A stretch of 64,000 nucleotides of DNA, from NCBI GenBank assembly GCA_963555755.3, contig OY820905.2, positions 1,664,001 through 1,728,000 on the forward strand, in the 5' to 3' direction. Below, in pieces: positions 1,500 to 48,767 of this stretch (positions are counted from its first letter, which is position 1; every line of letters begins with the position of its first letter). The notes under the pieces were generated by a model. The model ran no database searches. It was not told where the DNA came from and saw only the letters and a list, made by a program, of their open reading frames with translations. Origin of the DNA: Nitrospirales bacterium (GTDB lineage Bacteria; Nitrospirota; Nitrospiria; Nitrospirales; UBA8639). Position numbers and translations under genes: made by a program.

Positions 1500-1656
1500 G
1501 GGTTCGCGCAAGAATACCTTCCCCGGTTTGGGCGTCGATCCATCCCGTCTGGCGGCGTTGCTCGTCCTTTCCATACCGAGAGTATGCGCAGTCCTCGCGC
1601 CTTGCCAGACAGGTGTCTCAGCACCCAAACCGGGGAAGGTATTCTTGCGCGAACCC
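1500..1656. mobile_element. MITE family B copy 1 (157 bp)
   Basis: Perfect 33-bp TIR gggttcgcgcaagaataccttccccggtttggg; second copy at 48611-48767. Confidence 0.85.
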
Positions 1657-1699
1657 TCCGTGGTGATGAGACATTTTTCTCTTTTGCGAGGTGCGCTCA

Positions 1700-1962
1700 G
1701 GGTCCGTCACGAAATAACCGGGACAATTGGGAGGCCCAGATTTGTGATCGGGGCAAGGCGCGACGAGGGAGCAGAGCGGGGCTCTGTGACCGAGGAGCAA
1801 CGCTGCCCCGGGCCAAAGATGGGCCTCCCCGGAGGGCCGGACGCTTTTGGGCTCCGCCGGCGTCGCTCATCGCTTCCATACTCCCGGTATGCGCGCTCTT
1901 CGCTCCTTGGCTCGTTCCAAAATCGTCTCGGCCAATTGTCCCGGTTATTTCGTGACGGACCC
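1700..1962. mobile_element. MITE family C (263 bp)
   Basis: Perfect 31-bp TIR gggtccgtcacgaaataaccgggacaattgg; flanks TCA/TAA. Confidence 0.8.
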
Positions 1963-1965
1963 TAA

Positions 1966-2145
1966 GGACCTGCGAGAAAATAACTTGATCAATATCGCGC
2001 CAAGATTTGGGTCGGATTTGGACGAAACGATTGAGAAACACTCGAGGCATAGCACAGCTATGGTGAGGGTTTTTCGATTGAGGCCCGTTCAAAGATGGCC
2101 CGAAGATTGGATGCGAGATTGATCAAGTTATTTTCTCGCAGGTCC
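1966..2145. mobile_element. MITE family D copy 1 (180 bp)
   Basis: 28-bp TIR ggacctgcgagaaaataacttgatcaat; TAA duplication; other copies at 32653 and 56953. Confidence 0.85.
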
Positions 2146-2448
2146 TAAGAGCTTGCGCGGACTTTTGTGATCCAACTGCTGTTTCTAGGTTCAAGCAGGA
2201 AATGCCAGGGTACAGGCAGGAACAACTCGATTACATGGGCAGTGCCGGTTTTGGTTTTAATCAATTCATGAAATGCCGGAAATAATAGGCCAGCCTTACC
2301 CCGACGAAATGCGTAAATGCAGCCTTGAGAACTCAAAGAAATGCGACGTCGGTACCCATAAAAAAATGCTCGTAGAAACGTGGCGTAGGTATTGACGCGT
2401 AGCAATCAAGCCGAGCCTGATCGATTCTCGACACCGGATTTAGGATCA

Positions 2449-2729
2449 CATGAAGCGTTTTTGGCCGAAGTCCCTGTCATGACCTCACATATCGGTGGTA
2501 TGGCAGAGTTAGTGGAAAATGGAGTGAATGGTCTTCATTTTCAGATGGGGAATGTGGCGGATCTGGCCAGGCAATGACAACGAGTGATCGATGATCCTTT
2601 ACTGCTCGCTCAGCTTAAGAAAAATATTCTACTCGTTACGCCAATAGGAAGCCATGCCTTAAAAATAGAAACGATCTATAGAGGTCTTCTTCCTCAAGCG
2701 CCACTACCAAGGACTAGTGTTTCCCAAGA
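2449..2729 (+). pseudogene. GT4 glycosyltransferase C-terminal fragment
   Basis: EAFLAEVPVMTSHIGGMAELVENGVNG motif; in-frame TGA at 2575; no N-terminus; IS1595 inserted at the 3' end; paralogous to 1-159. Confidence 0.75.
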
Positions 2730-3741
2730 TATGCCTTCCCATTTAACTAAGGTTGCTTCAGTTTATTGAATCCCAAGGGTTTTGAGCTGCTGGTCAGGAT
2801 TTTCAACAAACTCTGGAAGGTACTCATTGGAGTCTCACGGCGGTTATAGCGAAAGACAAACTCATCAAGATAGTGTTGCAGGTATTTTGAATCCACTCCA
2901 TGGTGAATCCCGTTCAGCCAGGTCTGCAGATTGCCGAACGCTCTATGGATGTGTGGAGCGTGCTTCCCAGCACTTGCTGGGTCACCCTGGGTCCGTCTCA
3001 GGTGTTCGTATCCTGCCAAGGCTTTTGCCGAGTATCCCTTCCAACCATCGGACTTGATCTTACTGCCCTCAGCGACATGGCTATTGAGGAATGCTTTGAT
3101 CTCGTTCTCTCCAGCGTCTTGAAGAATCGCTAATCGTAAACGCCCTGCTTTCTCTCGAAAGTGATCCCCTTGTGTGTACGTGACAATTTCTACGGCTCCG
3201 GCTATTAACGTCTTGGTTTTCGCTTTCGCGACGCCACGGCCCGTTTTGCCTTTTACCGGTCCACCGATATGGGTTTCATCGGCTTCAACTGTTCCTGCGA
3301 GCCGTTCACGGTTCTGTCGTACCATTCCTCGTCGCAATCTGTGGAGCAAATACCAGGCGCTATCCACCTTCTTGATACTGAGTTGACGCTGCAATTGCAC
3401 AGCACTGATGCCAGGTGTGTGCGTGGAGACGAAATAGGCAGCCCAAAACCAAAGCCGTAGCGGCAAGTGCGATCTATGCATCACTGTGCCGCTTAGCGGT
3501 GATGTCTGTCTATGACACGACGAACACTCAAACCGGAAATATTTTTTGAGCCACCAACCACCGCGATGACCGCAAGCTGGACACATAAACCCGTCTGGCC
3601 ACCGAATCGCCCGCAAGTACTCGAAGCACGCTTCTTCGGTGTGGAACCTAACAGAAAAATCCAAGATATCAGCAGCATACCCTGTGTCCATAGTCCAGCA
3701 GACTAGTCTAGGGACTAACCTTAGTCAAATGGGAAGGCATA
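2730..3741 (-). mobile_element. IS1595-family insertion sequence
   Basis: TIR tatgccttcccattt(a/g)actaagg; 8-bp TSD tcccaaga at 2722-2729 and 3742-3749. Confidence 0.92.
2747..3691 (-). CDS. IS1595-family transposase
   Basis: Zn-ribbon RWPDGFMCPAC...CSSC, VEADETHIGG, SDGWKGY and YLDEFVFRYNRR. Confidence 0.93.
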   Translation of the reverse strand: MDTGYAADILDFSVRFHTEEACFEYLRAIRWPDGFMCPACGHRGGWWLKKYFRFECSSCHRQTSPLSGTVMHRSHLPLRLWFWAAYFVSTHTPGISAVQLQRQLSIKKVDSAWYLLHRLRRGMVRQNRERLAGTVEADETHIGGPVKGKTGRGVAKAKTKTLIAGAVEIVTYTQGDHFREKAGRLRLAILQDAGENEIKAFLNSHVAEGSKIKSDGWKGYSAKALAGYEHLRRTQGDPASAGKHAPHIHRAFGNLQTWLNGIHHGVDSKYLQHYLDEFVFRYNRRETPMSTFQSLLKILTSSSKPLGFNKLKQP

Positions 3742-3805
3742 TCCCAAGAATAACAATTGGCGTATATCACTGGCCAACAGTCCTCGTCTTTGGATTTGAC
3801 CCTCC

Positions 3806-4750
3806 TCACCAATGGCCCGAAAAATTATCGACCTGTTTGAACATGGTCTGAAGCCTTCTTAAGTCTTTATAGGGCAACGGAGGACGCAAGAGGGAGGAGA
3901 CATTTGCCTGAAGGTGCTCCACGTTTCCCGTCGAAAATAAAACGACATGAATGCCCGGCTCATGACGGCAATAGCGGTATGCCGCATCGGTTAAACTCAC
4001 AGCCCCCTTCTTGTGAAAAAGGAAGTTGAGAGCGTGACCATCCTCGGCTTTGGTCTTGTCTGTCACCCCTGTTTCTGCCAATGTGGTCAATGCAGTCTTT
4101 AAATTTTCTCTACTGTTCAAGGCACGTCTCACGGCATACATTCCGAGTACACCAATATTGTTTTTCATGGCTGTCGATAGGACCTCCGTTCGTGCCGTTT
4201 GATTCAGCATATTAAACCCGACGCAAATAACGTCCCAACAATCATCCTGAACCGCACGATGTAACATTCTATGACTAGGGTCTGCCCAAAATTTTTCGGT
4301 AATTCCAAGAAAACGAATTTTGCCCTCATCACGAAGCCGTAATTGAACGGGTACGAGTTCCTCTGCGACGTATTGATATTCTTTTTCTTCTACCGCATGA
4401 AATTGATAGATATCGAGATAGTCTGTGTTGAGCTTGCGAAGACTATTTTCGGCGGACTGTACCAGATCCTTGGCGGCGATTAGTTTATTATTGAGGTACA
4501 TGGGGGCTTTGGTGGATAGCACGAGTTCTTGTCTTTTTCTCCCTTTTAGCGCTTTGCCCAGAATCTCTTCTGTCCCGTAAGTTTCAGCGGTATCAGCGAA
4601 GTTGATACCAAGGTCCAGAGCCCTGTGTACAAGGGAGATTGATTCCGCCTCGGTTTTTCCTGTTAATTGACCGAGGCGACTCATTCCACCACACCCCAAT
4701 CCCATCACACTCACACGAAGACCTGTTCTGCCTAGAATTGTATATTCCAT
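3806..4750 (-). CDS. Aldo/keto reductase
   Basis: MEYTILGRTGLRVSVMGLG, DTAETYG, STK and LNTDYLDIYQFH; start placed at the ATG at 4750. Confidence 0.93.
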   Translation of the reverse strand: MEYTILGRTGLRVSVMGLGCGGMSRLGQLTGKTEAESISLVHRALDLGINFADTAETYGTEEILGKALKGRKRQELVLSTKAPMYLNNKLIAAKDLVQSAENSLRKLNTDYLDIYQFHAVEEKEYQYVAEELVPVQLRLRDEGKIRFLGITEKFWADPSHRMLHRAVQDDCWDVICVGFNMLNQTARTEVLSTAMKNNIGVLGMYAVRRALNSRENLKTALTTLAETGVTDKTKAEDGHALNFLFHKKGAVSLTDAAYRYCRHEPGIHVVLFSTGNVEHLQANVSSLLRPPLPYKDLRRLQTMFKQVDNFSGHW

Positions 4751-5016
4751 TTCCTGTTGTGAATTTTGACCGCTGGTTTGGCCAATTTGTATTAAATGAT
4801 GAAAAAAATCGTTAAGGTATCGAGGCAACACGATATTTCTTTTTCCTCATCAAGAATGGGGGTTTACTGTCGTCTTCTCAACAATGTGTCAGAAAATGCC
4901 ACAAGGATTTGATCAATGATTCTCCTTCCAAGGTTCAGGATTGCTCACTTTTCTCCCAAAGTCCAATGAAAAATGTAGGTGTTGATTTTTGGGGCTCCTC
5001 TTTTTATGAAGGAATA

Positions 5017-5032
5017 TGGCATGCCATTTGCA
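5017..5032 (+). promoter_or_regulatory. Putative sigma-54 -24/-12 promoter upstream of the HD pair
   Basis: TGGCATGCCATTTGCA has correct GG-N10-GC spacing. Confidence 0.55.
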
Positions 5033-5099
5033 ATATAACTTTTCAGAACTCTTGCGACTTTTCCCGACCTTCAAATGAAATGCCTCTCGGGGAAAACCT

Positions 5100-6065: not shown

Positions 6066-6066
6066 T

Positions 6067-7117: not shown

Positions 7118-9020
7118 CAGGGCTATTTCATTTTAAAGTGCAACTTCATAGATAATAAGGGATAATCGATTTAGGCTGGCTTTTTCTTTTCGTTTGGGGC
7201 ATACTCTTTTTCATGCCAGACGAATCGCCAAACGGACATCCGGCCATCGATCTTGGGCAAGTCGTAGTTCGACCGATTGTCCCGGACGAGAAGGAAGCCT
7301 TCACGACCCTTCTCGCCCGACATCACTACCTCGGGCCTGCCCCGTTGATTGGCCCATCGATCCAATATCTCGCCTGTGTGCAGGATCGCTGGCTGGCCTT
7401 GCTGGTGTTTGCGGCGGCGGCCCTCAAATCGAGAGCGCGAGACCACTGGATCGGCTGGCCCCCCTGTTTCCAATGGCAACGCCTCCATTTACTTGCCAAC
7501 AACACCCGGTTTCTCATCCTGCCGGACTGTTCGCAACAAAACCTCGCCTCGAAAGTCCTGTCGCTCTGCGCGAAACGGATCGCGGCCGATTGGCACCTGT
7601 GCCACGGCTACCCCTTGCTCCTCTTAGAGACCTTCGTCGATCCTGCCCGCTTCACCGGGACCTGCTATCGAGCCGCCGGGTGGCAGGAGCTCGGGCTGAC
7701 ACGCGGGTTTCGCAAGTCCAATACGCGGTATGTTCAGCATGACCGCCCGAAACGCATCCTGGTCAAGAGCCTACATCCCCAAGCCCGAGAGATTCTTGCA
7801 CGCCCGATGCTTGATCCGACCTATCAGAAAGGAGAGGTGCCTCAGATGCGATTGAATACCAAGCAGACGGACTCCCTGTTTACCTATGTGGTGCAGCTGA
7901 CCGATCCACGCAAGTTGCAAGGGCAACGACATCCCCGACGAGCTCTCACCGCGATCATGTTCTGTGCCACCTTGTGTGGAGCACGTGGGTATGAAGCCAT
8001 AGCGGACTGGGCCCAGCATTTATCCCAGACGATGAGAAAGCGGCTGGGCTGTCCCAAGCGAGGAGGGCGCTACCTCGTCCCAAGCCGCAGCACTCTCTAC
8101 CGGTTTATCAATGCCGTCGACCCCTGTGAAGTCGATACCCTGCTCGGCCGGTGGCTGGATACCTTCGGCGGGGAGGATCAGGGCATCGCCATTGATGGCA
8201 AGACCATGCGGGGGACTTCGAAGGTCCCGAGCGAACAGACCCATGTCCTCAGTGCCGTCACCCATGACGAGGGGCGCCACCTCACCCCAAAAAAGTCGAC
8301 ACCAAGACCAATGAGATCCCCTGCGTGCGTCCCTTATTCGATGAGCTGGAGATCGAAGGGAAGGTCATCACGGCGGATGCGCTCCTCACCCAGAAAGAGA
8401 TCGCAAATTACCTTGTGCAAGAACGCGGGGCCGACTTCGTCTTCACCGTCAAGGGGAACCAGCCGACCTTGAAACGCGACATTGAGGCCTTGGCGTTGCG
8501 AGTACGACGGTGTGATACTGAAACAACCGATAAAGGCCATGGGCGGATCACGACCCGTAGGATCTGGTGTGACGACTCCTTGAATGCCTCTGTCACCTTT
8601 CCCCATGTGCAGCAAGTCTTCTGCATTGAGAGGGAAGTCGCGCATCTCAAGAAGGGCATCACGACGGTAGATACCGTATGCGGAGTCACGAGTCAGTCAC
8701 CAGCGAAGGCATCGCCGCAGAAAATCCTCTCGCAAAACCGGAACCATTGGAGTGTGGAGAATAAGCAGCATTATGTGTTGGATGTCACCTTTGATGAAGA
8801 CCGGAGTCAGATCAGACGGCTCAATGGCCCGATGGTCATGACCTGTCTGAGACGCTATGCCATCAGTCTCTTACGCGTGAAAGGCAACACCAATATCGCG
8901 CAGGCGTTTAGATGGCTCTGGGCCAAGCCGCATGTAGCCATCCGTATGGCCTTGCCCTGAAAAAGAGAGCAAAAAAACCTAATGGAACCACTTGCTTATA
9001 AAAAGAATGAAATGGCCCTG
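7118..9020 (+). mobile_element. ISAs1-family element copy 1 (intact)
   Basis: TIR cagggc(t/c)atttcatt; 9-bp TSD cccaaaagg at 7109-7117 and 9021-9029. Confidence 0.9.
7213..8960 (+). CDS. DUF4338 (DruA-like) domain fused to ISAs1 transposase; probable -1 frameshift
   Basis: N-terminal HHYLG/RDHWIGW/NNTRFLIL/LETFVD/GTCYRAAGW, then DPR..GQRH and IAIDGKT. A_AAA_AAG at 8289-8295 leads in the -1 frame to KTNEIP, TADAL, VKGNQ, HWSVEN and FDEDRSQIR. Confidence 0.85.
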
Positions 9021-10610
9021 CCCAAAAGGTCCTCACCACCTTGCCGTCACGAAGAATCTCGTACCTGCAGTGCTGGGCAAAGAGTCGCTGGACTTGTTCC
9101 CAGGTCGGGGTCGAGGTGGGTCGTTCCTCGGGGAGGGTTCGCAGGGTTCGAATACCGCTCTTCTCCATCGCCTGTCTGAGATCGCGCTGAATGAGGGCGG
9201 CCACGAGATCGGCGAGGTAGACCACGAGCATGAGAGCCTCGATGCGTTCGTTGTTCTTGAGGAACACCGGAGCCACCTGGAAATCGGATTTGAGGCCGCT
9301 GAAACGCTTCTCGATATGAGGCTGATACTTGTACGCCTCCAGGACCGCTTTGGCGGAGAGGGAGGTATTCGTGACCAGCGGAAAGATGCCATCAATGGCC
9401 TTGGCCCGAGCGAGCTGTTCCGGGTCTTGCTGGATCATGAGCTGCGGAATGTGTTTGACGGTGCGATGGTAGGTCGACGCGGGCGAGGGTTTGCCGCGGG
9501 CGGTCTGTGTGAAGGTTTCCTCCACGCGGTGGCTCACGGTCACCGTGAGCCACGGAGCCACCTGATACCTCGCGATGATCTGGTGGGCCTGCTTGAGTAA
9601 CGAGCGCTCGGTTCGGCGCCCACGCGCTTTCTTCTCGTTGAGCGCCGCGAGTTTGTGCCGAGCGATCTCCAGCCGGTCCTTGCGGCGGCTGGCATCGCGC
9701 TTTCTCTTCTCGGAGGAGCGATACCAATAGAGTCGAAACCCCTCCGCCAGCTGATACGCCTCGCTCGCGACCGAAAACACGTCATACATCCCCCGCCTTC
9801 GAGTCGAGCGCTGGCGTAGGAGCGGGTCCCAGCGGACGGTCGCCTCGTAGCAGTCGGTGGCAAACGCGTGGGTTTCGGCCCGGGTCCGAGGGACGATGGT
9901 GACAAACCGACCGTGTTCCTGGTCAATGCGCCGCATGTTGGCCGTCGTGCATAATTTGGAGTCGGCGACGTAGAGGAACCCAGCCCCGCCCACCAAGCGG
10001 CGCAACGTCAGCCAATTCTCGATATGCAGGGTGTCATCGGTCTGATGGCCCGCATGGGTCTTGAAGTGAATCGGCACGGCTCCATCGCGCGCAATCGACA
10101 AATTGTAGAGGAGCTGCTTGAGATCGGGACGATGATCCTTGCTGTGGCCCCGCGTGAGGGAGACCCCTTTGCGCGATTGCGCCGCGTAGGCCCCCGAGAA
10201 CTTGACGGAGGTGGAATCACTATGGATCTGGGAGACATCAATCGTGAACCGTTCAATGGCCGCCAGCGTGAGGGTGGTCTGCAAGGTCGCGCGATCAGCC
10301 TGGAACAACCTGTCGAGGGCCCGCCCCAGCCCATCATCGGTGAGCGGCGCGGCTCCTCGCTCAATAGGGTCGAACTGCTGGGCCCAGGCTGGGACGCGGT
10401 AGAGCGCTGCCGGTTCGATCAGCATACTTTTGATGAGAAGCTCAATCGCCGTAGCGTACCGCGCCGAACGAAGAATGTCCTCCAGGCGTTGACGCACCCC
10501 GAGGGTCGCGAAGCAGCGATTGATGAATGGGAAGGTCGCAATCCGTACCTTCCGATGCTGCAAATCTTTGGCTTGCATCACGCCCTATCTTAATGCATAA
10601 TAGCATTAAG

Positions 10611-24463: not shown

Positions 24464-26457
24464 GTAGGGTCGAGGACTGGCGCGCCAACGGTAGGGTTCG
24501 GTGGCTCCTCCACCCCTTTCGGAATGGGCCTCAGTCCGACTCCCCTGGTCACGGTTCCAGTCCCCGCCACCTCAAACCCGGCGTGCTGATTTCCAGCACC
24601 GGGCTTTCCTGGATGCTTCACCTCAAGGGTTATGTGACCTATCAGCCTGGAAGGACTTTCATGCCGACCCGTTGTACCGCACTCGGTAATCTCCATATAA
24701 GCCAAGTACCGTGTAGAGCCAAACCTTACTCCACCTCTTCCAGCCAAAACCTCGACGGTGGCGCACTCGCATCATGTGCCGCCGGACCTTCCGCTCCACC
24801 CAATCCTTCACGTAGGATAAACACCGACTCGCATGCCCAATCCGGAAGTAGTTCACCCAGCCCCGTACGATCGGATTGATCATGGCGATCATCCGTCCCA
24901 CCGGCTGGGATTGCCCGCGTCGGAACACTTCCTTGAGCTTCCGCAGCAACGCGGTGCGCCGCTTCACCTTCGGTATGTACTGCGGGCGCCACACTCCACG
25001 CCGCGACCGCACACGCCGAAAGTCAAAGCCCAGAAAGCCGAAGCTGCCTCCCTGACTCAGGTCCACGATTCGGCTCTTCTCCTCATTCACCTGAAGGTCT
25101 AATTGGGCCAACGCCTCTCGCAGCTTCCGCTCCGCAACCTGCGCCAGTTGTGCGTGGCGGCGATAGCCATCCACTAACACGACGAGGTCATCCGCAAACC
25201 GGACATACTCGAGATACGTATACTGGCCCTGCCGGGTTGTCTCCTTCAGCTGCTCCAGCCTCTCATCCACTTCCGTGAGATAGAGGTTGGCCAGCAGCGG
25301 GGAAATCACACCCCCTTGAGGCACCCCACGCGGGCCGGACGCCTTGACGATGAGTTTCACCAGCCGCAGGATCGCGGGATCCTGGATGCGTCGGGCCACC
25401 TTCGCCAGCAGCCGGTCATGCCGCACCGTGTCGAAGAAGGCCGCCAGATCCACATCAATCACTCGCGTCTTGTTCTGCACCATCGCCTGAGCCACCCGGC
25501 CAATCGCCTGGTGGGCTGTCCGTTTCGGTCGATACCCATACGACCCATCACGAAAATCCGCCTCAAAGATCGGTTCCAGCAGGAGCTTGAGCGCTCCCTG
25601 TACCACGCGGTCCCGAATCGCGGGTATCCCTAAGACGCGGACTCGTCCACCGCCTTTCGAAATCTCCACGTGCCGGTTCCGCATCGGTCGGTAGGTCTGC
25701 GTGACCAGTTCGTCCCGTAGTCGTGCAAGAAAGGGCTCCACCCCCGTGGCCTCGATGCCAGCAAACGTCACCCCATCAATGCCGGGGGCTCCGTTGTTTT
25801 TCTTGGCCATCGAATAGGCCGCGCGTAGCGTCGCCTCTTTGCACACGTGGACGTACAGGCCCCACACCCGCCATCGCTTCTCAGCCTTCGCCTTGACGTA
25901 GAGCCGCTGTCGCAGGTCTTGCAGTGTAATGGACGCCGTTGTCATCTCGTCCCTGCCTCCCATGTTGATCACAGCCTACAGCCAGTAGGGCTCCTTTGCT
26001 CCACAGGCATGACCCTGCTTCCTCGCTCCTACGAGCCCCTCCGCCACCCTCTCGTCTTCGGCTCACTTCCCAGAGAGCTGGTTATAGAGCCGATCTTCCT
26101 CCAGGGATTTCTCCCTGGGACGAGGAGGGCTTCTCCAGTTGCGTCGTCTGTCCTTGCTCCCGTGCTGTCGCTCTCACCCCGCCGGAGTGGCCAGGCGTCT
26201 CAGCCTTGGTTCGCCTGTCCATGCCGTCTTCGTCCTACGGACAGGGACTCGACCTCCGAGGTTTCATACTTTCGAGGCTACCTCTGCGTTCACTTGCGTT
26301 ACGGCCCGGGAACTCGCTCACCATCCTCTACGATGGCTTTGTCGATGGGCTTCAGCGTCTCGGTTTCTCTCCACGCTGCCATCCAAGCTACAGGGCTCAG
26401 GCTCTTACCCTGGTGGGCTTGCTTCCCACTGAACAGTCTCGCCTTACCTGGACACAC
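24464..26457 (-). mobile_element. Inner group II intron (1994 nt) encoding an RT
   Basis: 5' GTGTG; DV GAAAGCCCGGTGCTGGAAATCAGCACGCCGGGTTTG; 3' end ...cgaccctac. Confidence 0.9.
24659..25945 (-). CDS. ltrA: Group II intron reverse transcriptase/maturase, no endonuclease domain
   Basis: GAPGIDG, LGIPAIRDRVVQ, SYGYRP, PQGGVISPLLAN, RFADD, FLGF and GWVNYF. Confidence 0.95.
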   Translation of the reverse strand: MTTASITLQDLRQRLYVKAKAEKRWRVWGLYVHVCKEATLRAAYSMAKKNNGAPGIDGVTFAGIEATGVEPFLARLRDELVTQTYRPMRNRHVEISKGGGRVRVLGIPAIRDRVVQGALKLLLEPIFEADFRDGSYGYRPKRTAHQAIGRVAQAMVQNKTRVIDVDLAAFFDTVRHDRLLAKVARRIQDPAILRLVKLIVKASGPRGVPQGGVISPLLANLYLTEVDERLEQLKETTRQGQYTYLEYVRFADDLVVLVDGYRRHAQLAQVAERKLREALAQLDLQVNEEKSRIVDLSQGGSFGFLGFDFRRVRSRRGVWRPQYIPKVKRRTALLRKLKEVFRRGQSQPVGRMIAMINPIVRGWVNYFRIGHASRCLSYVKDWVERKVRRHMMRVRHRRGFGWKRWSKVWLYTVLGLYGDYRVRYNGSA

Positions 26458-27172
26458 ATCCGTGCGTATGGTTTTCCCATACACGGCTTTCCGATGTTCT
26501 TCTTCCAGCGGCATGCGTCTGTCATCAGGCAATAGCCACATTCAGACTTGGCCTTCTGAGATAGTTTCCTCTGTAGTGTCCTGATCGTGCTCGGGGTGGT
26601 TAGCGCAATGGCAATCCCCTGATCCTCCACTCGTCGGAAACGTGAACAAAGTAGGGTCCCTTCCCTCGGGCCGGGTTGTGTTGTCCCAGGCTCTCCAACG
26701 GTACTATGAACCCCTCCGACTCCCACGACGGCCCGCAGCGATTTCGGTATCCCTTATACGCCTCAGTTGCTGGTTCTGCGCCAGCACCGTCGCGGGTCTC
26801 CCGTCCTGCACGGTGTCTCTTCCGCCACATGCCATCCCTGCTACCCCGGAAGATCCTGAGGGTGGGTGTTCGTTCTACTCCCTCAAACGGCGGCCTTCCC
26901 CTTCTGACCACAGGGTCGGCATCTCCAATTCGTTTACGAGGCTACATCTAGGTTCGCTTGCGCTACGGCCTGCGGCTTTGCCCATGGGAAACTTCAACCC
27001 CTGATTACTCAGACGCTGCTTCCTGGTGCTAGAAAGGTGTACGAACAACTCCTTTCGCGGGACTTCAACCCGCTAGACACACCGCCGATGACGGCATGCG
27101 GTCAAGTCGTCCTTTGGCGTACTTTCAATAATGCCGTTGGATGGCTTAACTCCTATTCCTTAATTGACATGT

Positions 27173-28760: not shown

Positions 28761-29864
28761 CCGAGTCGCCATACAGGCAGGGCCATTTCATTCTTTTTAT
28801 AAGCAAGTGGTTCCATTAGGTTTTTTTGCTCTCTTTTTCAGGGCAAGGCCATACGGATGGCTACATGCGGCTTGGCCCAGAGCCATCTAAACGCCTGCGC
28901 GATATTGGTGTTGCCTTTCACGCGTAAGAGACTGATGGCATAGCGTCTCAGACAGGTCATGACCATCGGGCCATTGAGCCGTCTGATCTGACTCCGGTCT
29001 TCATCAAAGGTGACATCCAACACATAATGCTGCTTATTCTCCACACTCCAATGGTTCCGGTTTTGCGAGAGGATTTTCTGCGGCGATGCCTTCGCTGGTG
29101 ACTGACTCGTGACTCCGCATACGGTATCTACCGTCGTGATGCCCTTCTTGAGATGCGCGACTTCCCTCTCAATGCAGAAGACTTGCTGCACATGGGGAAA
29201 GGTGACAGAGGCATTCAAGGAGTCGTCACACCAGATCCTACGGGTCGTGATCCGCCCATGGCCTTTATCGGTTGTTTCAGTATCACACCGTCGTACTCGC
29301 AACGCCAAGGCCTCAATGTCGCGTTTCAAGGTCGGCTGGTTCCCCTTGACGGTGAAGACGAAGTCGGCCCCGCGTTCTTGCACAAGGTAATTTGCGATCT
29401 CTTTCTGGGTGAGGAGCGCATCCGCCGTGATGACCTTCCCTTCGATCTCCAGCTCATCGAATAAGGGACGCACGCAGGGGATCTCATTGGTCTTGGTGTC
29501 GACTTTTTTGGGGTGAGGTGGCGCCCCTCGTCATGGGTGACGGCACTGAGGACATGGGTCTGTTCGCTCGGGACCTTCGAAGTCCCCCGCATGGTCTTGC
29601 CATCAATGGCGATGCCCTGATCCTCCCCGCCGAAGGTATCCAGCCACCGGCCGAGCAGGGTATCGACTTCACAGGGGTCGACGGCATTGATAAACCGGTA
29701 GAGAGTGCTGCGGCTTGGGACGAGGTAGCGCCCTCCTCGCTTGGGACAGCCCAGCCGCTTTCTCATCGTCTGGGATAAATGCTGGGCCCAGTCCGCTATG
29801 GCTTCATACCCACGTGCTCCACACAAGGTGGCACAGAACATGATCGCGGTGAGAGCTCGTCGGG

Positions 29865-31712
29865 CGGATCTTCCCCCCATGTTTGCCACCTAAGCTGTTG
29901 GAATTCTTCAGGGAAAGATTGGATTGCTCTCTGGAATGTAGGCATGTAATTGTTGTTTTATCTTGACTATAATGCTTTATTTATGCTATACATAAAGCAT
30001 GTATATCGCCACCGTTCCTAACCGCACCTCCCCGCCCGCCATTTTATTGCGCGAAAGCTACCGAGCGGGCGGCAAGGTGAAGACCCGGACCCTGGCCAAT
30101 CTGACCTCGTGGCCTCCGGCTCGCGTAGACGCGCTCAAGCGCTGCCTCCGTGGGGATTTCGATGGAACGGAAGACGAGGCGGGCCCCGTGAGTGATCGGA
30201 TCTTTGGCGTCCTCTTCGCCCTGAAAGCGGTGGCCCAACGGGTGGGAGTGGTGTCGGCCTTGGGTCCGAAACGAGTAGCCAAGCTCGCCCTGTTCCTGGT
30301 GCTGGCACGAGTGGCTCATCAGGGTTCGCGGCTGTCAGCCGTGCGGTGGGCCACCGATCATGCGGTCGCTGAGGTGTTGGGATTGCCCGCCTTTGACGAG
30401 GATGACCTGTACGAGGCCTTAGACTGGTTGGGCACCCAACAAGAAGCCATCGAGAAGAAACTGTATCGGGCCTATGTCCAGCGGACCGGCCAGCCACCGG
30501 TCTTGGTGCTCTATGACGTGACCTCCTCCTATTTTGAGGGGGACAAGAATGAACTGGCCGCCTATGGGTATAACCGGGACGGCAAGAAACACAAGAAGCA
30601 GATTGTCATTGGCTTGCTGACAGGGCCGGATGGTGAGCCGCTGGCCGTCACGGTGTTCAAGGGGAATACGGCGGATCCCCGCACGGTCGCCGAGCAGATT
30701 GAACGGATCAAGACCCAGTTCAAGATCACCGACGTCGTGTGTGTGGGGGATCGGGGGATGGTGAAAGCCGCAGGCAAGGCGGCCCTCACCGAGCAGGGAC
30801 TCAAGTACCTCACCGCCCTCACTGACCCGCAGATTCGCACCTTGCTGAAGAAAGATGTGCTCCAACTCAATTTGTTTGATGAGACGATACAGGAAGTGGA
30901 GGATGGGTCTCGTCGGCTGATCCTGCGGCGGAATGAGGCGTTGCGCCACACGGTGGCCACGCGACGTCAGGACAAAGTGGCCACACTGCAGCAGAAGGTC
31001 GCGGCGCGCAATGCGTTTGTTCAGACGGCCAAGCGGGCCACCCCGGCGGCGGGACAGCGGCAGCTGACCCAGTGGGCCAAGAAGCACAAGCTCTCCGCCT
31101 TCACCACCCTCGCCCTGCAGGGGACCCAGCTTGTGGTCGAGATTGATGAGGCCAAGCAGGCCGAGGCGGCCCTGTTGGATGGCTGTTCGGTGCTGGAAAC
31201 CGATGTGGCTCGGGACACGATGGATGCCGCGACGGTGGATGCCCGGTACCGGGACCTGCAACGGGTGGAACGCGACTTCCGGACGATGAAGACGGGCTTG
31301 CTCGAACTGCGCCCCATCTTTGTGCGGAAGGAGAGCCGCACGCGTGGCCATGTCTTTGCCGCGATGCTCGCCCTGAAAGTGGCCCGGGAAGGCGAGCGAG
31401 GCCTGAAGGAGGCGTTTGGGACGACGGAGCAGAGCGCCCAGGCGCTGACCCTTCAAGACGCCCTGGGGGCCCTGTCACGATTGTGTTTCCAACGCCATGC
31501 AATCGGCGGGCAGGAGGTGCTTCAGCTGGCTCGCCCCGATGCTAGGCAGGCAACCATCTTTGCCGCATTGGGGATCACCCCGCCTGCCACCACCACACGG
31601 CCAGCCAAGGTGCATGTGTAGGCAGAGACGTGGCCTCGCCCAAACCGTGACTTCTTCAATGACATCAAAAGGTTAGAGCCAAAAATCCGCCCAAAACTCG
31701 GGGGAAGATCCG
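29865..31712 (+). mobile_element. Second, distinct IS1634-family element
   Basis: TIR cggatcttccccc; 5-bp TSD tcggg at 29860-29864 and 31713-31717. Confidence 0.9.
29999..31621 (+). CDS. IS1634-family transposase
   Basis: LLRESYR..GKVKTRTLANL, YDVTSSYFEG, GYNRDGK, VGDRGM and VERDFRTMK. Confidence 0.93.
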   Translation: MYIATVPNRTSPPAILLRESYRAGGKVKTRTLANLTSWPPARVDALKRCLRGDFDGTEDEAGPVSDRIFGVLFALKAVAQRVGVVSALGPKRVAKLALFLVLARVAHQGSRLSAVRWATDHAVAEVLGLPAFDEDDLYEALDWLGTQQEAIEKKLYRAYVQRTGQPPVLVLYDVTSSYFEGDKNELAAYGYNRDGKKHKKQIVIGLLTGPDGEPLAVTVFKGNTADPRTVAEQIERIKTQFKITDVVCVGDRGMVKAAGKAALTEQGLKYLTALTDPQIRTLLKKDVLQLNLFDETIQEVEDGSRRLILRRNEALRHTVATRRQDKVATLQQKVAARNAFVQTAKRATPAAGQRQLTQWAKKHKLSAFTTLALQGTQLVVEIDEAKQAEAALLDGCSVLETDVARDTMDAATVDARYRDLQRVERDFRTMKTGLLELRPIFVRKESRTRGHVFAAMLALKVAREGERGLKEAFGTTEQSAQALTLQDALGALSRLCFQRHAIGGQEVLQLARPDARQATIFAALGITPPATTTRPAKVHV

Positions 31713-32537
31713 TCGGGGATGCCGTTGCCCTTGCAACTTGCGTGGATCGGTCAGCTTCACCACATAGGTAAACAGGGAGTCCGTCTGCTTGGTATTCAAT
31801 CGCATCTGAGGCACCTTTCCTTTCTGATAGGTCGGATCAAGCATCGGGCGTGCAAGAATCTCTCGGGCTTGGGGATGGAGGCTCTTGACCAGGATGCGTT
31901 TCGGGCGGTCATGCTGAACATACCGCGTATTGGACTTGCGAAACCCGCGTGTCAGCCCGAGCTCCTGCCACCCGGCGGCTCGATAGCAGGTCCCGGTGAA
32001 GCGGGCAGGATCGACGAAGGTCTCTAAGAGGAGCAAGGGGTAGCCGTGGCACAGGTGCCAATCGGCCGCGATCCGTTTCGCGCAGAGCGACAGGACTTTC
32101 GAGGCGAGGTTTTGTTGCGAACAGTCCGGCAGGATGAGAAACCGGGTGTTGTTGGCAAGTAAATGGAGGCGTTGCCATTGGAAACAGGGGGGCCAGCCGA
32201 TCCAGTGGTCTCGCGCTCTCGATTTGAGGGCCGCCGCCGCAAACACCCGCAAGGCCAGCCAGCGATCCTGCACACAGGCGAGATATTGGATCGAGGGGCC
32301 AATCAACGGGGCAGGCCCGAGGTAGTGATGTCGGGCGAGAAGGGTCGTGAAGGCTTCCTTCTCGTCCGGGACAATCGGTCGAACTACGACTTGCCCAAGA
32401 TCGATGGCCGGATGTCCGCTTGGCGATTCGTCTGGCATGAAAAAGAGTATGCCCCAAACGAAAAGAAAAAGCCAGCCTAAATCGATTATCCCTTATTATC
32501 TATGAAGTTGCACTTTAAAATGAAATAGCCCTGGACT

Positions 32538-32652: not shown

Positions 32653-32832
32653 GGACCTGAGAGAAAATAACTTGAACAATTTCGCGCCAAGATTTGGGTT
32701 GGATTTGGACGGAACGATTGAGAAAACCCCGAGGCATAGCACAGCGATGTTGAGGGTGTTTCGATTGAGGCCCGTTCAAAGATGGCCCGAAGATTGGATG
32801 CGAAATTGTTCAAGTTATTTTCTCTCAGGTCC
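32653..32832. mobile_element. MITE family D copy 2 (180 bp)
   Basis: 33-bp perfect TIR, TAA duplication, overlaps the fimT-like stop. Confidence 0.85.
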
Positions 32833-37334: not shown

Positions 37335-37347
37335 AGGGAAAGGTTCT

Positions 37348-43997: not shown

Positions 43998-44127
43998 ACA
44001 TCTCCTCTTAATGGTAACTTCTTCAGTTCATCAAAAGTTTAAAGTACTCTACTGGAGTCGATCCTAAGGGTCAATGCCAAAATGCAAAAGTTCGATTTGG
44101 CTTGTATTATGGAACATTGATCACAAA

Positions 44128-44457: not shown

Positions 44458-44752
44458 TTTCAGCCATCCTGGCTCAAGCCCACTGTTCCCAAAATACTGT
44501 ACTTAAACACGGCACATGCGTTTTCAGGTGCACTTAGGACTCGTTTCTGTTCTACCATTGCCGAATCCTTACTCTGATAAAAATTATCGGCAGTTCCTGC
44601 TGAGACCTAAAGATTAAAGCGCGAAAAAAATAAATAGGCTATTTTACCTAACTATTTTAACTTAAATGCGATAGGCTATGACCCAGAAAATCTGGCGTGA
44701 GGCTACAGGCATTTAAAATTTGGCCCTATCTTAGATTAAGACCGCCGTGATC

Positions 44753-45499
44753 TTATTGCCCTTCCAGGCGAGCTTTTGCTTTTTCAGCCAAGTCCCGAAT
44801 GGCTGGACGCAACGCATCCTGAAGTGCAACGGGATAACTCTGTACTGAAACTCCCAACCCATAATACACCCCATCAATTTCTGAACCACGAAATTCCATG
44901 GCAAAACTCCATAAGACCTGGGATGGATCACCCGTGGGAGTAAGCCGCAGATCCATCTTCACCTCGGTAGTAGTTTCTCCCATAGGCAATCCAGCCATCC
45001 AAAGAACCGTCCCCAGTGGACCCAAGAGATAGGTTGTAAGGCGCCGTTCCCACTTGGTGGAATAGAGGCGTCCCCGCAACACGTAATCACTTGGTGGAGG
45101 AGTCTGGTCTCCAGAAAATATCACCGTGGAATAAATATTGGCCTCACGAATCTCATCGGCCAGGGCTCGGGCAAAATCCTTAGGGGGATCAAAAAACACT
45201 TCATCAATTTGTTCGGGATCCACCGCTGTTTCCGGACGATCATACGACGTCACCCCATGCGGCACCAAGGGAATGGCCACTCGCCAATATTCCTCGCTCA
45301 CTTCGGTGCCACGAAGATCTTCAAGCGGGAGCACGGCAAGACGGGCGGGAATGGAATCCTTGGCCGAAACATTCAAATAGGTCTTGACCGGAGGGGGTGG
45401 ATAGCTCCACTCTCGAGGCCCTAAACACCCCGAAATACTAAGAGCCCCAATAATTAGGAGAATACACCAGACTTTGAAAAATGATGACGAACGAATCAT
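44753..45499 (-). CDS. Hypothetical lipoprotein
   Basis: Signal peptide with lipobox ISGC. Confidence 0.75.
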   Translation of the reverse strand: MIRSSSFFKVWCILLIIGALSISGCLGPREWSYPPPPVKTYLNVSAKDSIPARLAVLPLEDLRGTEVSEEYWRVAIPLVPHGVTSYDRPETAVDPEQIDEVFFDPPKDFARALADEIREANIYSTVIFSGDQTPPPSDYVLRGRLYSTKWERRLTTYLLGPLGTVLWMAGLPMGETTTEVKMDLRLTPTGDPSQVLWSFAMEFRGSEIDGVYYGLGVSVQSYPVALQDALRPAIRDLAEKAKARLEGQ

Positions 45500-45744
45500 G
45501 TCATGCCTCCTTTAATAGCAACAGATGGCACAATTGGAATTTTGGCACATCCGGCAGGCAAGTTTCCAGTGCTTCTTAAGTCCCATCGCAATATCTACCC
45601 TGACCTATGATATGAAGAACTGATCCACGGTTTAACCTCAGGTCTCACCAAGCTTCCAATCCTAATTTTGTCTATGCCCTGGACCCGACTGTCCAGCTAA
45701 CAGATTGCCTAAATAGCCGCTGGGATGACAATGACCTGAATTCC

Positions 45745-46365
45745 TTACGGGACAAGTCCCCCGACACGGCAAAATTCATCTTGGAGTTCGCTATAGGATT
45801 GAACCACAGAAAATTGAGGAAATTCCGACTTGATTGAATCCGGTGGGCAAAAGAATACTCCCGCATCAGCTTCTTTCAGCATCGAAATATCGTTATAAGA
45901 ATCCCCGGCCGCCAGGACACGAAATTTCAAATTCTTCAGAGCCGCCACCGCATGGCGTTTTTGATCAGCTTGGCGAAGGTGATAGTTTCGAATAAACCCT
46001 TCCTCGTCAATGTCCAATGTATGACAAAATATGGTCGGATAGTGAAGCTGCTCCATCAAAGGCGCCACGAGATCATAAAACGTGTCAGAGAGAATGATCA
46101 CCTGGCATCGCGTTCGGAGCCAGTCTAAAAATGCCGAACTCCCTGCCAGAGGTCGCAACTCAGCCACCACATTTCTAATATCAGCAATCCGCACCTGATG
46201 ATCCGCCAAAATTTTGAGCCGTAATTGCATCAACTCGTCGTAATCCGGAATATCACGTGTGGTGACTTTCAGATCCGCAATGCCCGTTTTATCCGCAACC
46301 GCCAGCCAAATCTCTGGGGTCAAGACCCCTTCTAAATCTAAGCAGGTGATGACTGGTTGTGTCAT
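45745..46365 (-). CDS. thrH: Phosphoserine phosphatase / homoserine phosphotransferase
   Basis: CLDLEGVLTPEIW, TTRDIPDYDELM and GDSYND. Confidence 0.93.
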   Translation of the reverse strand: MTQPVITCLDLEGVLTPEIWLAVADKTGIADLKVTTRDIPDYDELMQLRLKILADHQVRIADIRNVVAELRPLAGSSAFLDWLRTRCQVIILSDTFYDLVAPLMEQLHYPTIFCHTLDIDEEGFIRNYHLRQADQKRHAVAALKNLKFRVLAAGDSYNDISMLKEADAGVFFCPPDSIKSEFPQFSVVQSYSELQDEFCRVGGLVP

Positions 46366-46470
46366 AAGATCCTTAACTTCTTTTTCTTCTTCTATCGTGC
46401 GACAGTGGTCAGTCAAAAACAAAACCCATGTATCTTAAAGAACCCACGCCGGGACTACAATCATCGAGAG

Positions 46471-47454
46471 CTATTTCTCGAACACTTCAGGATTCACGCA
46501 ATGAGGCAAGGGTTGGCCTGCCAAACCCGCGCGGAGATTTTCTGCCGCCATCACGGCCATTTTGCTCCGAGTGGCCACCGAGGCACTCGCAATATGCGGG
46601 ACGATCAAACAATTGGGCAACATGACAAGAGGGTCCTGGGCTGAAAGGGGTTCGGGGTCGGTGACATCCAGGGCAGCATACGCAATGGTTCGATCGCGGA
46701 GAGCATCCAGCAAAGCCTCCGAATCCACGACCTTTCCTCGTGCCGTATTGATTAGGATAGCCGTCGGCTTCATACGATTGAAGACCTGTCGATCGATCAA
46801 ATGCTGGGTCTCGGGTGTCAGAGGAACGTGCACACTCAGAAAGTCAGATTCCGCAACGACTTGATCAAATGGCAACTGTTCCACATGGCTCTGACTAAGA
46901 ATATCGTCAGCAATTGGTCGCGAATGGTACACTAATACTCGCATCCCAAATCCAGTGGCACGACGCGCCACGGCCTGACCTATTCGACCGAATCCAATAA
47001 TGCCCAAGGTAGCGCCATACACATCGTGGCCAACCAACAGTGTGGGATCCCACGCTCCCCAGCACCCGGCCTTCACAAACTCAGCGGCCTCACCAATTCG
47101 GCGCGCCGCAGCCATTAACAACGCAAACGCACAATCTGCCGTGGTTTCAGTCAATACTCCGGGAGTGTTCCCCACAGGAATCTTCCGTGTCGTGCAGGCA
47201 TGCACATCAATATGGTCATACCCAACGGCCATGGTACTGACCACACGAAGCCGTGGGGCCTGAGCCAACAACGCTTCATCGACTGCATCGGTCAGCAGGC
47301 AATAAAGCCCTTCAACAGACGCGATTTTTTGAAGGAGCACATCGCGAGGAATAGGACCCTTTCCCTCCCACACCTCGACATCGGCACAGTCTTGCACGGC
47401 TTGCAATCCGGCATCGGGAATCCGTCTGGTCACAAGAACGCGTGGTTTAGACAT
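46471..47454 (-). CDS. D-2-hydroxyacid dehydrogenase (glyoxylate reductase-like)
   Basis: NTPGVLTETTAD, GFGRIG, INTARG and PHIASA. Confidence 0.92.
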   Translation of the reverse strand: MSKPRVLVTRRIPDAGLQAVQDCADVEVWEGKGPIPRDVLLQKIASVEGLYCLLTDAVDEALLAQAPRLRVVSTMAVGYDHIDVHACTTRKIPVGNTPGVLTETTADCAFALLMAAARRIGEAAEFVKAGCWGAWDPTLLVGHDVYGATLGIIGFGRIGQAVARRATGFGMRVLVYHSRPIADDILSQSHVEQLPFDQVVAESDFLSVHVPLTPETQHLIDRQVFNRMKPTAILINTARGKVVDSEALLDALRDRTIAYAALDVTDPEPLSAQDPLVMLPNCLIVPHIASASVATRSKMAVMAAENLRAGLAGQPLPHCVNPEVFEK

Positions 47455-47498
47455 GGGAAACTTTGACCTTCAAGGCATCAAATCTGAAAAATGAGCGA

Positions 47499-47549
47499 CT
47501 GGCTCAAACCAGCATCCCCTCGTAACGATCGCTAATCGCGAACAGGCTC
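47499..47549. mobile_element. MITE family E end fragment
   Basis: Matches 49139-49189; abuts the antiporter stop (ctaa). Confidence 0.65.
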
Positions 47550-48554
47550 CTAAAGAACCGTCAATATGACCACGAAGGCCACATAGCACAAACCATTGAG
47601 AATAAGGTGAGCCGGTTTGATCTCCTGCCGCCTGGCCAAAAGCCAAAGGTAGGTGGTGGCAAAAAATGTCAATCCCATGCCGAGAAGCACTTCGGTCCGA
47701 GGCACCCAAGGAGTCAGCATGATGCCTAATGCCGGAAGCAGGCTGCCTTGAAACACCATGGCGCCGGTGATATTCCCAAACGCCAGAGTATCCCGGCCCC
47801 GCCGAATCCAAATGATGCTATTCACTTTCTCCGGCAATTCGGTCGCCACCGGTATAATAAGGAGGGACAAGGCTAACGTCGAGATTCCTAACCAAGACGC
47901 TAAATGCTCCACACCGTAAACAAACCCTTTCGCTCCCCCCACGATCAGACCAAGCCCCAACAACAGCTGCATGCTGATGGTGACAAGATTGTCCGGTAAA
48001 TGGACCCGGCTAAGAAAAAGCGGATGATCGGCTTCTGTCCCATGGCCTTCCTCGACCAGCCCACGTGAGGCGCGAATCGTCAGCATGAGGTAGATCATAT
48101 AGCTGAGGACTAACCCCAGAGCTAACGTCCCGCGAGTCACCCGCCACTCGACAGGCACGAACACCGCAATCGTCGCCAAGGCAAACGCAAACAGAAACCA
48201 ATTCAGATCTCGTCGCAATCCCGTTGGTTCAGGACGAAACGGACTGTTCCATCCACGGCGGTGCGCCGCAAACATCCCCATCAAAAACAACGTCAAGGTC
48301 GAGAGCATGAGTGGAGCCCCTAAAATAGCCCCCACGCCAACTTCGTGCCGTATTTCGAGACTGCCGGAACTCGCCAACACTGCCACGATAGGAACCATGG
48401 CTTCAGGCAACGCCGTTCCGACGGCAGCAAAAATCGACCCTGTCACGCCTTCGGAAATACCTAATCGTTGGCCAAGATGTTCCAACGCATTGGTAAAGGC
48501 TTCCGCACCGACCAATATCAAAATTAACGCAATAAGGAGAATCCAAAGTTCCAT
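47550..48554 (-). CDS. Sodium:calcium antiporter (CaCA family)
   Basis: GTALPE and ATELPE repeats; GNITG. Confidence 0.9.
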   Translation of the reverse strand: MELWILLIALILILVGAEAFTNALEHLGQRLGISEGVTGSIFAAVGTALPEAMVPIVAVLASSGSLEIRHEVGVGAILGAPLMLSTLTLFLMGMFAAHRRGWNSPFRPEPTGLRRDLNWFLFAFALATIAVFVPVEWRVTRGTLALGLVLSYMIYLMLTIRASRGLVEEGHGTEADHPLFLSRVHLPDNLVTISMQLLLGLGLIVGGAKGFVYGVEHLASWLGISTLALSLLIIPVATELPEKVNSIIWIRRGRDTLAFGNITGAMVFQGSLLPALGIMLTPWVPRTEVLLGMGLTFFATTYLWLLARRQEIKPAHLILNGLCYVAFVVILTVL

Positions 48555-48610
48555 CGTAGTCTTATCTCTCAGTTAATACGGCTGTCTCACGAACTCCGTA
48601 ATGTGCCTAA

Positions 48611-48767
48611 GGGCTCGCGTAAGAATAACTTCCCCTATTTGGGTGCTGAGACACCTGTCTGGCAAGGCGCGAGGACTGCGCATACTCTCGGTATGGAAAG
48701 GACGAGCAACGCCGCCAGACGGGATGGATCGACGCCCAAATAGGGGAAGTTATTCTTACGCGAGCCC
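48611..48767. mobile_element. MITE family B copy 2 (inverted relative to copy 1)
   Basis: Perfect 33-bp TIR gggctcgcgtaagaataacttcccctatttggg; TAA duplication. Confidence 0.88.

What the first reader, a model, noticed from the sequence alone, without database searches (positions are those of the whole stretch)
1500..48767. MITE terminal repeats vary in mirror image while the interior is conserved
Seen: B1 (1500-1656) and B2 (48611-48767) have identical 91-bp interiors. Their 33-bp TIRs differ at 5 positions (4, 10, 18, 26, 27), and every change is present at both ends, so each copy is a perfect IR. The same pattern appears in D (2 mirrored changes between D1 and D2, 5 in D3), A (acagc/acggc) and G (gggggc/ggggaa). 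Established: DDE-element TIRs are usually the most conserved part. Inference: one end may be templated from the other during copying or repair, selection may act on the stem structure rather than its sequence, or a conserved core may be swapping between transposase-specific ends. This is the best candidate here for an undescribed mechanism.
Basis: partly seen in the sequence, partly recalled or inferred. Interest (0 to 1): 0.8.

Follow-up and report, generated by a model that had tools for sequence, protein, structure and literature searches.

The report
Mini-transposon ends copy each other
In a family of about 160 small non-coding transposon copies, mutations in one end repeat turn up mirrored in the other end far more often than chance allows, even in copies that stayed at the same site, likely because DNA replication occasionally copies one arm of the hairpin onto the other, a known repair-like process that my literature searches did not find described for these bacterial elements.

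Summary
The B1/B2 observation is exact. B is a 157-bp MITE with ISAzo13-type ends and a 3-bp TWA duplication; there are 161 near-full copies in G000, and no ISAzo13 transposase was found there.

Mirroring is real but partial. Only 26 of 120 solo copies are perfect repeats, yet 30 of 128 rare arm changes are mirrored (shuffles: mean 1.15, max 7). Mirroring is confined to the arm centre (29/102; edges 1/26; interior stems 0/173).

Orthologous copies in sister species differ as one-sided versus mirrored, so the change happens in place. Transposition does not template ends: asymmetric copies multiplied unchanged, and a 1-kb IS keeps its end mismatch in 36 of 36 copies.

'Interior conserved' is overstated: singleton density is equal in arms and interior. 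B1/B2 are near-consensus interiors sharing a 3-base patch.

Best reading: sporadic short-tract arm-to-arm copying, likely quasi-palindrome template switching. This is a known process in a new setting, not an undescribed mechanism. The scan noted similar mirrored MITE ends in two other genomes. Family G's ends and a biased duplication middle base remain unexplained.

The parts
1500..1656 (+). B1, 157-bp MITE with perfect 33-bp arms (1500-1532, 1624-1656), nested in element A; flanking triplets damaged (TTG/TCC), so likely a passenger
48611..48767 (-). B2, solo 157-bp MITE with perfect arms and a direct TAA duplication (48608-48610, 48768-48770); one of 3 copies of a young subfamily (4C, 10T, 27A mirrored)
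1417..2190 (+). A1, host MITE (TCA flanks 1414-1416 and 2191-2193) carrying B1, C1 and D1 as nested insertions
1700..1962 (+). C1, 263-bp MITE with 31-bp arms; this family shows little mirroring (1 of 25 rare changes)
1966..2145 (+). D1, 180-bp MITE with TAA flanks
32653..32832 (+). D2, solo 180-bp MITE; differs from D1 by mirrored changes at 8, 24 and 29
56953..57131 (-). D3, divergent 179-bp D copy; 5 mirrored and 3 unmatched arm changes
52427..52590 (+). A2, empty A element with no nested B, C or D
56702..56822 (+). G1, about 122-bp hairpin repeat without a detectable target duplication; outer hexamer mirrored
58948..59108 (+). G2, G copy nested in element F, with an internal insertion
2728..3743 (.). 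1-kb IS used as a long-spacer control: its single end mismatch is kept in all 36 genomic copies (the IS1595-like label is recalled from protein motifs, not tested)

Best explanation
These are ordinary ISAzo13-type MITEs whose two 33-bp end repeats are sporadically made identical in place, in short patches, likely by replication template switching, in which the new strand would fold back and copy one arm from the other. Shown: mirrored rare alleles far above chance, concentration in the arm centre, one-sided and mirrored states at the same insertion site in sister species, no inversion of the interior, and faithful copying of asymmetric ends by transposition. Inferred: a mutation arises on one arm, or arrives by recombination with another of the roughly 160 copies; the 91-bp spacer, itself partly paired, lets the arms meet in single-stranded DNA; a fold-back switch then copies a few bases across, either duplicating or erasing the change. 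The innermost and outermost bases escape because they would be needed to prime the switch and to realign. In-place arm-to-arm copying by any route I put at about 0.85; template switching as the route at about 0.6.
For: Rare-allele test on 120 of 127 solo copies (7 dropped for arm gaps or more than 8 mismatches): 6 of 21 singletons mirrored (shuffle mean 0.08, max 2) and 28 of 97 alleles in 5 or fewer copies (mean 0.70, max 5); 20 of those 28 are transversions. After collapsing to 93 clusters: 30 of 128 (mean 1.15, max 7); centre 29/102, edges 1/26, interior stems 0/173 (Fisher p 0.008 and 2e-14). Left-right arm distance correlates at 0.48, against 0.28-0.29 for arm versus the adjacent interior. 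Orthologs: 15 same-site pairs among 65 copies from G005, G006 and G018 show 9 sites one-sided in one genome and mirrored-derived in the other, plus 2 changes on both arms, e.g. G000:4377908 versus L239 at positions 15 and 25. My hand estimate of about 2 expected gives p about 3e-4. Passenger ladders in 34 A-nested copies: 26G right-only then both; 8T right-only then both; and a 4C/20A/26C trio with partial and erasing tracts. Orientation is unchanged in 34 of 34 B-in-A and 34 of 34 G-in-F, and no inverted ortholog was found. Long-spacer controls keep their mismatches: 36 of 36 copies of a 1-kb IS and 17 full-length copies of an autonomous ISAzo13. D repeats the signal (9 of 32, shuffle mean 0.35, max 6; 42 of 92 copies used). 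The process is described in bacteria (PMC5941160 introduction; PMC7202029 passages) and as a source of apparent compensatory changes (PMC8794818 abstract).
Against: No replication-strand bias: 103 versus 96 one-sided changes on the fork-proximal versus distal arm, and position-4 outcomes are equal in both orientations, whereas E. coli template-switch mutations show strand bias. The test is weak because copies were reshuffled by recombination. One copy needs transfers in both directions (4377908), which suits patch repair equally well. About 3 of the 9 ortholog sites are more simply fresh mutations on an already mirrored arm, polarity is unrooted for most, and one G000 copy is counted twice. 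Families A, C, F and E show little signal (3/43, 1/25, 2/41, 1/13). Family G shows the opposite profile: the outer hexamer is mirrored while a central G/C mismatch is kept in 81 of 108 copies. The 91-bp spacer exceeds the 70-bp limit used in PMC5941160.
Confidence: 0.6

Rival explanations
1. In-place copying, but by mismatch repair of the folded hairpin (single-stranded template or extruded cruciform), which would fix a mismatch in either direction without strand discrimination.
For: Very short tracts (18C copied while 13 and 23 were not, L159), both directions within one copy, no strand bias, edge protection, and mutS is present.
Against: Mismatches in the perfectly paired interior stems are never mirrored (0 of 173). 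Multi-site private haplotypes such as G000:3918551 fit one copying event. No NucS was found.
Confidence: 0.18
2. Gene conversion between different copies alone: each arm independently picks up alleles from other copies, or whole mirrored copies overwrite others.
For: Inter-copy exchange is evident: all four combinations of 49C and the CGA patch exist, and several relatives' copies join flanks of two different G000 copies.
Against: Six mirrored alleles have no other carrier among the 120 solo copies. Such exchange would lower left-right concordance, which is instead the highest correlation measured.
Confidence: 0.07
3. Independent compensatory mutations selected to keep an RNA or DNA stem, or two matching transposase sites.
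For: Unmatched sites lean weakly to G-U wobble on one strand (B 54 vs 35, p 0.056; G 19 vs 9, p 0.09). G's mirrored outer hexamer could be a selected closing stem.
Against: 0 of 173 in interior stems; 20 of 28 mirrored rare changes are transversions; 57 of 146 unmatched sites are non-wobble on either strand; 94 of 120 copies are imperfect; passengers with broken flanks also change.
Confidence: 0.06
4. The ISAzo13 transposase (or repair of its breaks) rebuilds one end from the other during or after mobilisation.
For: The duplication's middle base is unmatched in 23 of 101 solo B copies, with a 13:1 bias among mirrored triplets, and in 14 of 17 autonomous copies, so junction processing in this family is not simple.
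Against: An 8-copy subfamily multiplied with unmatched arms. 17 autonomous copies keep clearly different ends. Edges, where a transposase acts, are the least mirrored. No such transposase was found in G000.
Confidence: 0.05
5. A few fixed subfamilies, each matched to its own autonomous IS.
For: Small subfamilies exist (B2 type 3 copies, B1 type about 13 nested copies). Alleles 4C and 13A match the second end of the autonomous relative.
Against: 104 distinct arm pairs among 120 copies and 17 perfect haplotypes; the signal survives collapsing; same-site orthologs differ.
Confidence: 0.04

Closest known systems
Quasi-palindrome correction by template switching in bacteria (Lavi et al. 2018, PMC5941160: read the introduction and passages; Klaric-type E. 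coli lacZ reporters, PMC7202029: passages)
   Same: Imperfect inverted repeats are made perfect by templated change; the intramolecular form leaves the spacer in place; the correction is expected to depend on arm and spacer length.
   Different: Here the substrate is a multicopy MITE with 33-bp arms 91 bp apart (that survey capped spacers at 70 bp), the frequency can be read directly from about 160 copies, and no strand bias was detected.
Template switching as a source of apparent compensatory substitutions in RNA stems (PMC8794818: abstract and opening paragraphs)
   Same: Mirrored double changes arise in one step and mimic selection on structure.
   Different: That work concerns RNA genes; here the interior stems show no mirroring and the arms are transposon ends.
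Galileo TIR dynamics in Drosophila (Marzo et al. 2013, PMC3573991: passages)
   Same: The two TIRs of a copy are 98-100% identical, repair of one TIR from another TIR is proposed, and chimeric copies have unmatched target duplications.
   Different: Long eukaryotic TIRs repaired by homologous recombination, versus 33-bp bacterial arms with patches of a few bases.
ISAzo13 family insertion sequences (NF033519, PF07592) and bacterial MITEs in general (Delihas 2011, PMC3184786: passages)
   Same: B's consensus end is identical over 23 bases to the left end of an autonomous ISAzo13 in G041; GG...CC ends with TWA flanks.
   Different: B encodes nothing. My search for ISAzo13 plus MITE returned 1 paper, whose passages do not link the two.
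REPINs (PMC3337134: passages)
   Same: Hairpin-forming doublets whose two ends are highly conserved within a copy.
   Different: B has DDE-type ends and a target duplication. Family G, which lacks a duplication, is the closer look-alike.

Membership tests
MITE (DDE-derived) | Short, multicopy, with terminal inverted repeats | tested here: met
   161 near-full copies, 157 bp, 33-bp arms
MITE (DDE-derived) | Target-site duplication | tested here: met
   78 of 101 solo copies with T.A triplets on both sides are direct repeats. Of 5 empty orthologous sites, 2 hold the single triplet exactly, 1 a mutated triplet and 2 are unclear.
MITE (DDE-derived) | Cognate transposase available in trans in the same genome | tested here: not met
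   No PF07592 or L038-protein match in G000 (99.4% complete), with the family search shown to work in G041, G042 and G006; G006 holds only fragments.
ISAzo13-derived MITE | Ends match an autonomous ISAzo13 element | tested here: met
   The first 23 bases of the B consensus equal the left end of the 1893-bp element in G041 (PF07592 393 bits). L038 has near-identical ends and scores 403.9 bits on NF033519, cut-off 200.
ISAzo13-derived MITE | Mobilised by that transposase | not testable with these tools
   Needs a transposition assay.
Quasi-palindrome template-switch mutation | Changes perfect the repeat using the other arm's base | tested here: met
   30 of 128 rare changes mirrored vs 1.15 expected; ortholog pairs
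Quasi-palindrome template-switch mutation | Intramolecular form leaves the spacer uninverted | tested here: met
   34 of 34 nested B and 34 of 34 nested G in one orientation; no inverted ortholog
Quasi-palindrome template-switch mutation | Replication-strand bias | tested here: inconclusive
   103 vs 96, p 0.67; confounded by later rearrangement
Quasi-palindrome template-switch mutation | Falls with longer spacers and shorter arms | tested here: inconclusive
   B 18/69, D 9/32, G 9/40, A 3/43, F 2/41, C 1/25; 1-kb IS 0 of 36. Consistent, but family age is not controlled.
Quasi-palindrome template-switch mutation | Independent of RecA and coupled to DNA synthesis | not testable with these tools
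   Needs genetics.
REPIN (HUH/RAYT-mobilised) | No DDE-type target duplication | tested here: not met
   B has one. G has none at any fixed offset (best 4-bp offset 4 of 108).
REPIN (HUH/RAYT-mobilised) | Associated RAYT transposase | not tested
   No RAYT search was run.

The most novel reading that the evidence does not exclude
These MITEs are self-symmetrising: their folded ERIC-like core brings the two ends together so efficiently that about one in four central arm mutations is copied to the other end, letting orphan elements keep matched ends and shift both ends in one step to a new transposase's specificity. In family G an element-specific reaction, not ordinary replication slippage, writes the mirrored outer hexamer (20 different perfect hexamers among 66 perfect copies, no target duplication).
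Probability: 0.15. Interest if true: 0.7.

Novelty: new variant of a known kind. Interest (0 to 1): 0.42.

Why it matters
It shows that mirrored ('compensatory') changes in transposon ends need not mean selection on an RNA structure or a special transposition chemistry, which is a trap for covariation-based RNA discovery. It offers a natural, many-copy readout of template-switch frequency, tract length and edge effects across a 91-bp spacer, and a route by which both ends of a MITE can drift together. It also ties a widespread set of TWA-flanked MITEs to the little-studied ISAzo13 family.

Tried and rejected
Rfam scan of the window: 3 matches (two group II intron pieces and a tRNA), none on the MITEs.

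Autonomous partner in G000: none by paired-end scan, family search or protein search.

Replication-strand test: null.

Conversion running into B's flanks: no mirror excess at -3 to -7; a lone excess at -8 (0.40 vs 0.26) is unexplained.

Laying public contigs on B2 and on the sister pair at G000:3966992/3967222: other strains carry the insertions and some one-sided differences, but contigs break inside the repeat, so arms could not be phased. Inconclusive.

Empty copy of the hairpin target in G041: 0 matches, so 2-bp versus 3-bp duplication for the autonomous element stays open.

G orthologs: 8 filled same-site pairs and 0 empty sites among 32 copies, with no clear two-arm change, so G's origin is untested.

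Literature: searches found no paper, in the listings I saw, reporting arm-to-arm conversion in bacterial MITE ends. Subscription journals are largely not held, and the Lovett 2017 review was not available. No supplements were read. R-scape was not available; permutation tests were used instead.
Full report
OBSERVATION. B1 (1500-1656) and the reverse complement of B2 (48611-48767) have identical 91-bp interiors, differ at arm positions 4, 10, 18, 26 and 27, and are each perfect 33-bp inverted repeats. Contigs of run X3 match the outer 26 bases of both B2 arms without a difference; X3 may be the source sample, so this excludes an assembly slip only. The D, A and G examples are present as stated, except that D3 also has three unmatched positions.

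WHAT B IS. I kept 161: 34 nested at one site in element A and 127 solo. Solo copies sit in T-W-A triplets, direct in 78 of the 101 with T.A on both sides. One, L038, scores 403.9 bits on the ISAzo13 model NF033519 (cut-off 200) and 320.5 on PF07592. The other, in G041, has 17 full-length copies and a left end identical to the B consensus over 23 bases. Its right end carries 4C and 13A, the two alleles enriched on one B arm (61 vs 31 and 28 vs 15 copies), so B likely began with unequal ends. No ISAzo13 transposase was found in G000; G006 has fragments. B occurs in 4 of 40 relatives searched, one only weakly.

IS THE MIRRORING MORE THAN CHANCE? Yes, though it is partial. Of 120 solo copies analysed (7 dropped for arm gaps or more than 8 mismatches), 26 are perfect, in 17 different haplotypes, and there are 104 distinct arm pairs. 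Mean left-right distance is 2.30 within copies and 4.05 between. Six of 21 singleton alleles are mirrored (shuffle mean 0.08, max 2), and 28 of 97 alleles carried by five or fewer copies (mean 0.70, max 5); 20 of the 28 are transversions. Collapsing near-identical copies to 93 clusters leaves 30 of 128 (mean 1.15, max 7). Positions 5-28 give 29 of 102, the edges 1 of 26, and the predicted interior stems 0 of 173 (Fisher p 0.008 and 2e-14). In 45 of the 49 G005 copies the figure is 12 of 70 (mean 0.7, max 6), but some of these are orthologous to G000 copies. For alleles in three or fewer copies, other families gave: D 9 of 32 (42 of 92 copies used; the 178/179-bp type was dropped for an arm gap), G 9 of 40 (140 of 199 used), A 3 of 43, F 2 of 41, C 1 of 25 and E 1 of 13.

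IS THE INTERIOR CONSERVED? Not specially. Singletons per site are 0.61, 0.73 and 0.66 for left arm, right arm and interior. The arms' higher diversity (0.12-0.13 vs 0.074) is mostly four common polymorphisms. B1 and B2 both have the consensus interior plus one 3-base patch at 78-80 that occurs in 7 copies, in all four combinations with the 49C allele, which points to exchange between copies. Of 190 pairs with identical interiors, 29 differ at five or more left-arm positions, so B1/B2 is a tail case, not a rule.

WHERE DOES IT HAPPEN? In place. First, among 65 copies fetched from G005, G006 and G018, 15 pair with a G000 solo copy by both flanks. They show 9 sites that are one-sided in one genome and mirrored for the derived base in the other, 2 changes on both arms, 1 swap, and 35 ordinary one-sided differences. 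G000:4377908 is mirrored for 15C and 25T, where the G005 ortholog has 15C on the left only and 25T on the right only. L159 has 18C mirrored while positions 13 and 23 stay unmatched, a tract of under 10 bases. L164, matched by its left flank only, gains 11G on both arms and lacks 13A. My hand estimate of independent mutation is about 2 such sites (p about 3e-4). About 3 of the 9 are more simply new mutations on an already mirrored arm, most pairs are unrooted, and one G000 copy is used twice. Second, the 34 A-nested passengers, all in one orientation, form ladders: 18C both, then 26G right only, then both; 13C and 22T both, then 8T right only, then both; and three copies sharing interior 55A in which 20A is copied without 7T and 12G, or the left arm overwrites the right. 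Third, G000:1965208 has a private mirrored 16C that its same-flank sister 3934033 lacks.

WHAT IT IS NOT. It is not part of transposition: eight copies multiplied with the same unmatched arms, the 17 autonomous copies keep different ends, and a 1-kb IS keeps one end mismatch in 36 of 36 copies. It is not selection on a stem in B: interior stems show none, transversions dominate, and most copies are imperfect, though unmatched sites lean weakly to wobble on one strand (54 vs 35, p 0.056). It is not a set of fixed subfamilies, and not crossover between the arms, since no inversion was seen.

MECHANISM. I commit to intramolecular template switching at a quasi-palindrome (0.6), with mismatch repair of the folded hairpin as the main rival (0.18). 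The model fits short non-inverting tracts, protection of both edges (inferred: priming and realignment need paired bases), and the loss of signal with long spacers. Against it, I found no strand bias (103 vs 96), one copy needs both directions, and the spacer is longer than in published surveys. mutS is present and NucS was not found.

KNOWN WORK. Arm homogenisation by template switching is established in bacteria (PMC5941160, introduction and passages; PMC7202029, passages) and explains apparent compensatory changes (PMC8794818, abstract and opening). TIR-to-TIR repair is proposed for Galileo (PMC3573991, passages). Searches listed no paper on this in bacterial MITE ends or on ISAzo13 MITEs; the library lacks most subscription journals. 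Earlier notes of this scan report mirrored MITE ends in two other genomes and an ERIC-like core in this one; they are unchecked leads, not support.

LOOSE ENDS. Family G has no fixed target duplication, a hypervariable mirrored outer hexamer (20 of 51 rare alleles mirrored, shuffle mean 0.3; 20 perfect hexamers among 66 perfect of 108 solo copies), and a central mismatch kept in 81 of 108, the reverse of B's profile. Its orthologs were all filled (8 of 8). The middle base of the B triplet is mirrored as TTA..TAA 13 times and TAA..TTA once (p 0.002), and only 3 of 17 autonomous copies have a direct triplet.

VERDICT. A real, quantifiable phenomenon, best read as a known mutational process acting on a new substrate. 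New variant of a known kind; interest 0.42.

Noticed in passing
G041 loci L126-L150: The autonomous ISAzo13 (17 near-identical full-length copies) often sits in the centre of hairpin-like targets (e.g. L142, L147, L133), and only 3 of 17 have a direct 3-bp duplication; 7 read TAA..TTA and 4 share a longer right junction. The family's cut and target rule look unusual (possibly a TA target with variable extra bases).
   Followed up: partly
window 56702-56822 and 58948-59108 (family G, about 199 copies): No target duplication; outer 6-7 bases hypervariable yet mirrored; several subgroups share a right flank that decays with distance, as if flanking DNA travels with the element; orthologous across the genus.
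   Followed up: partly
solo B flanks genome-wide; C nested in A (window 1697-1699, 1963-1965): The middle base of the T-W-A flank is unmatched in 23 of 101 solo B copies, with a 13:1 bias among mirrored triplets; C family flanks read TCA/TAA 12, TAA/TGA 8 and TAA/TAA 6.
   Followed up: partly
window 1417-2190: Russian-doll array: MITE A carries B, C and D; 34 B-in-A and 34 G-in-F composites exist, each in a single orientation.
   Followed up: partly
B, C, G interiors; L018, L020, L074, L092: The interiors share a central hairpin design (ERIC-like, recalled and noted in e1-5205291), and ISAzo13-type ends enclose G-like or B-like cores in Acidobacteria and Desulfobacterales.
   Followed up: partly
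L199, L226, L247, L258 (G005): Single B copies whose left and right flanks match two different G000 sites: B copies act as recombination points for rearrangements and tandem deletions or duplications.
   Followed up: partly
window 26294-26431 and 26834-27066 (-): Two group II intron domain matches (Rfam RF02003, RF02005), next to a D copy at 26226.
   Followed up: no
window 7118-9022 vs 28776-32533: Long, near-identical inverted duplicates (823 and 1089 bp), probably copies of a recent IS, one interrupted.
   Followed up: no
G000:C1:3331512 and 2332331-2333548: Full insertion sequences inserted inside B copies, including two tandem copies of the 1-kb IS within a B arm.
   Followed up: no
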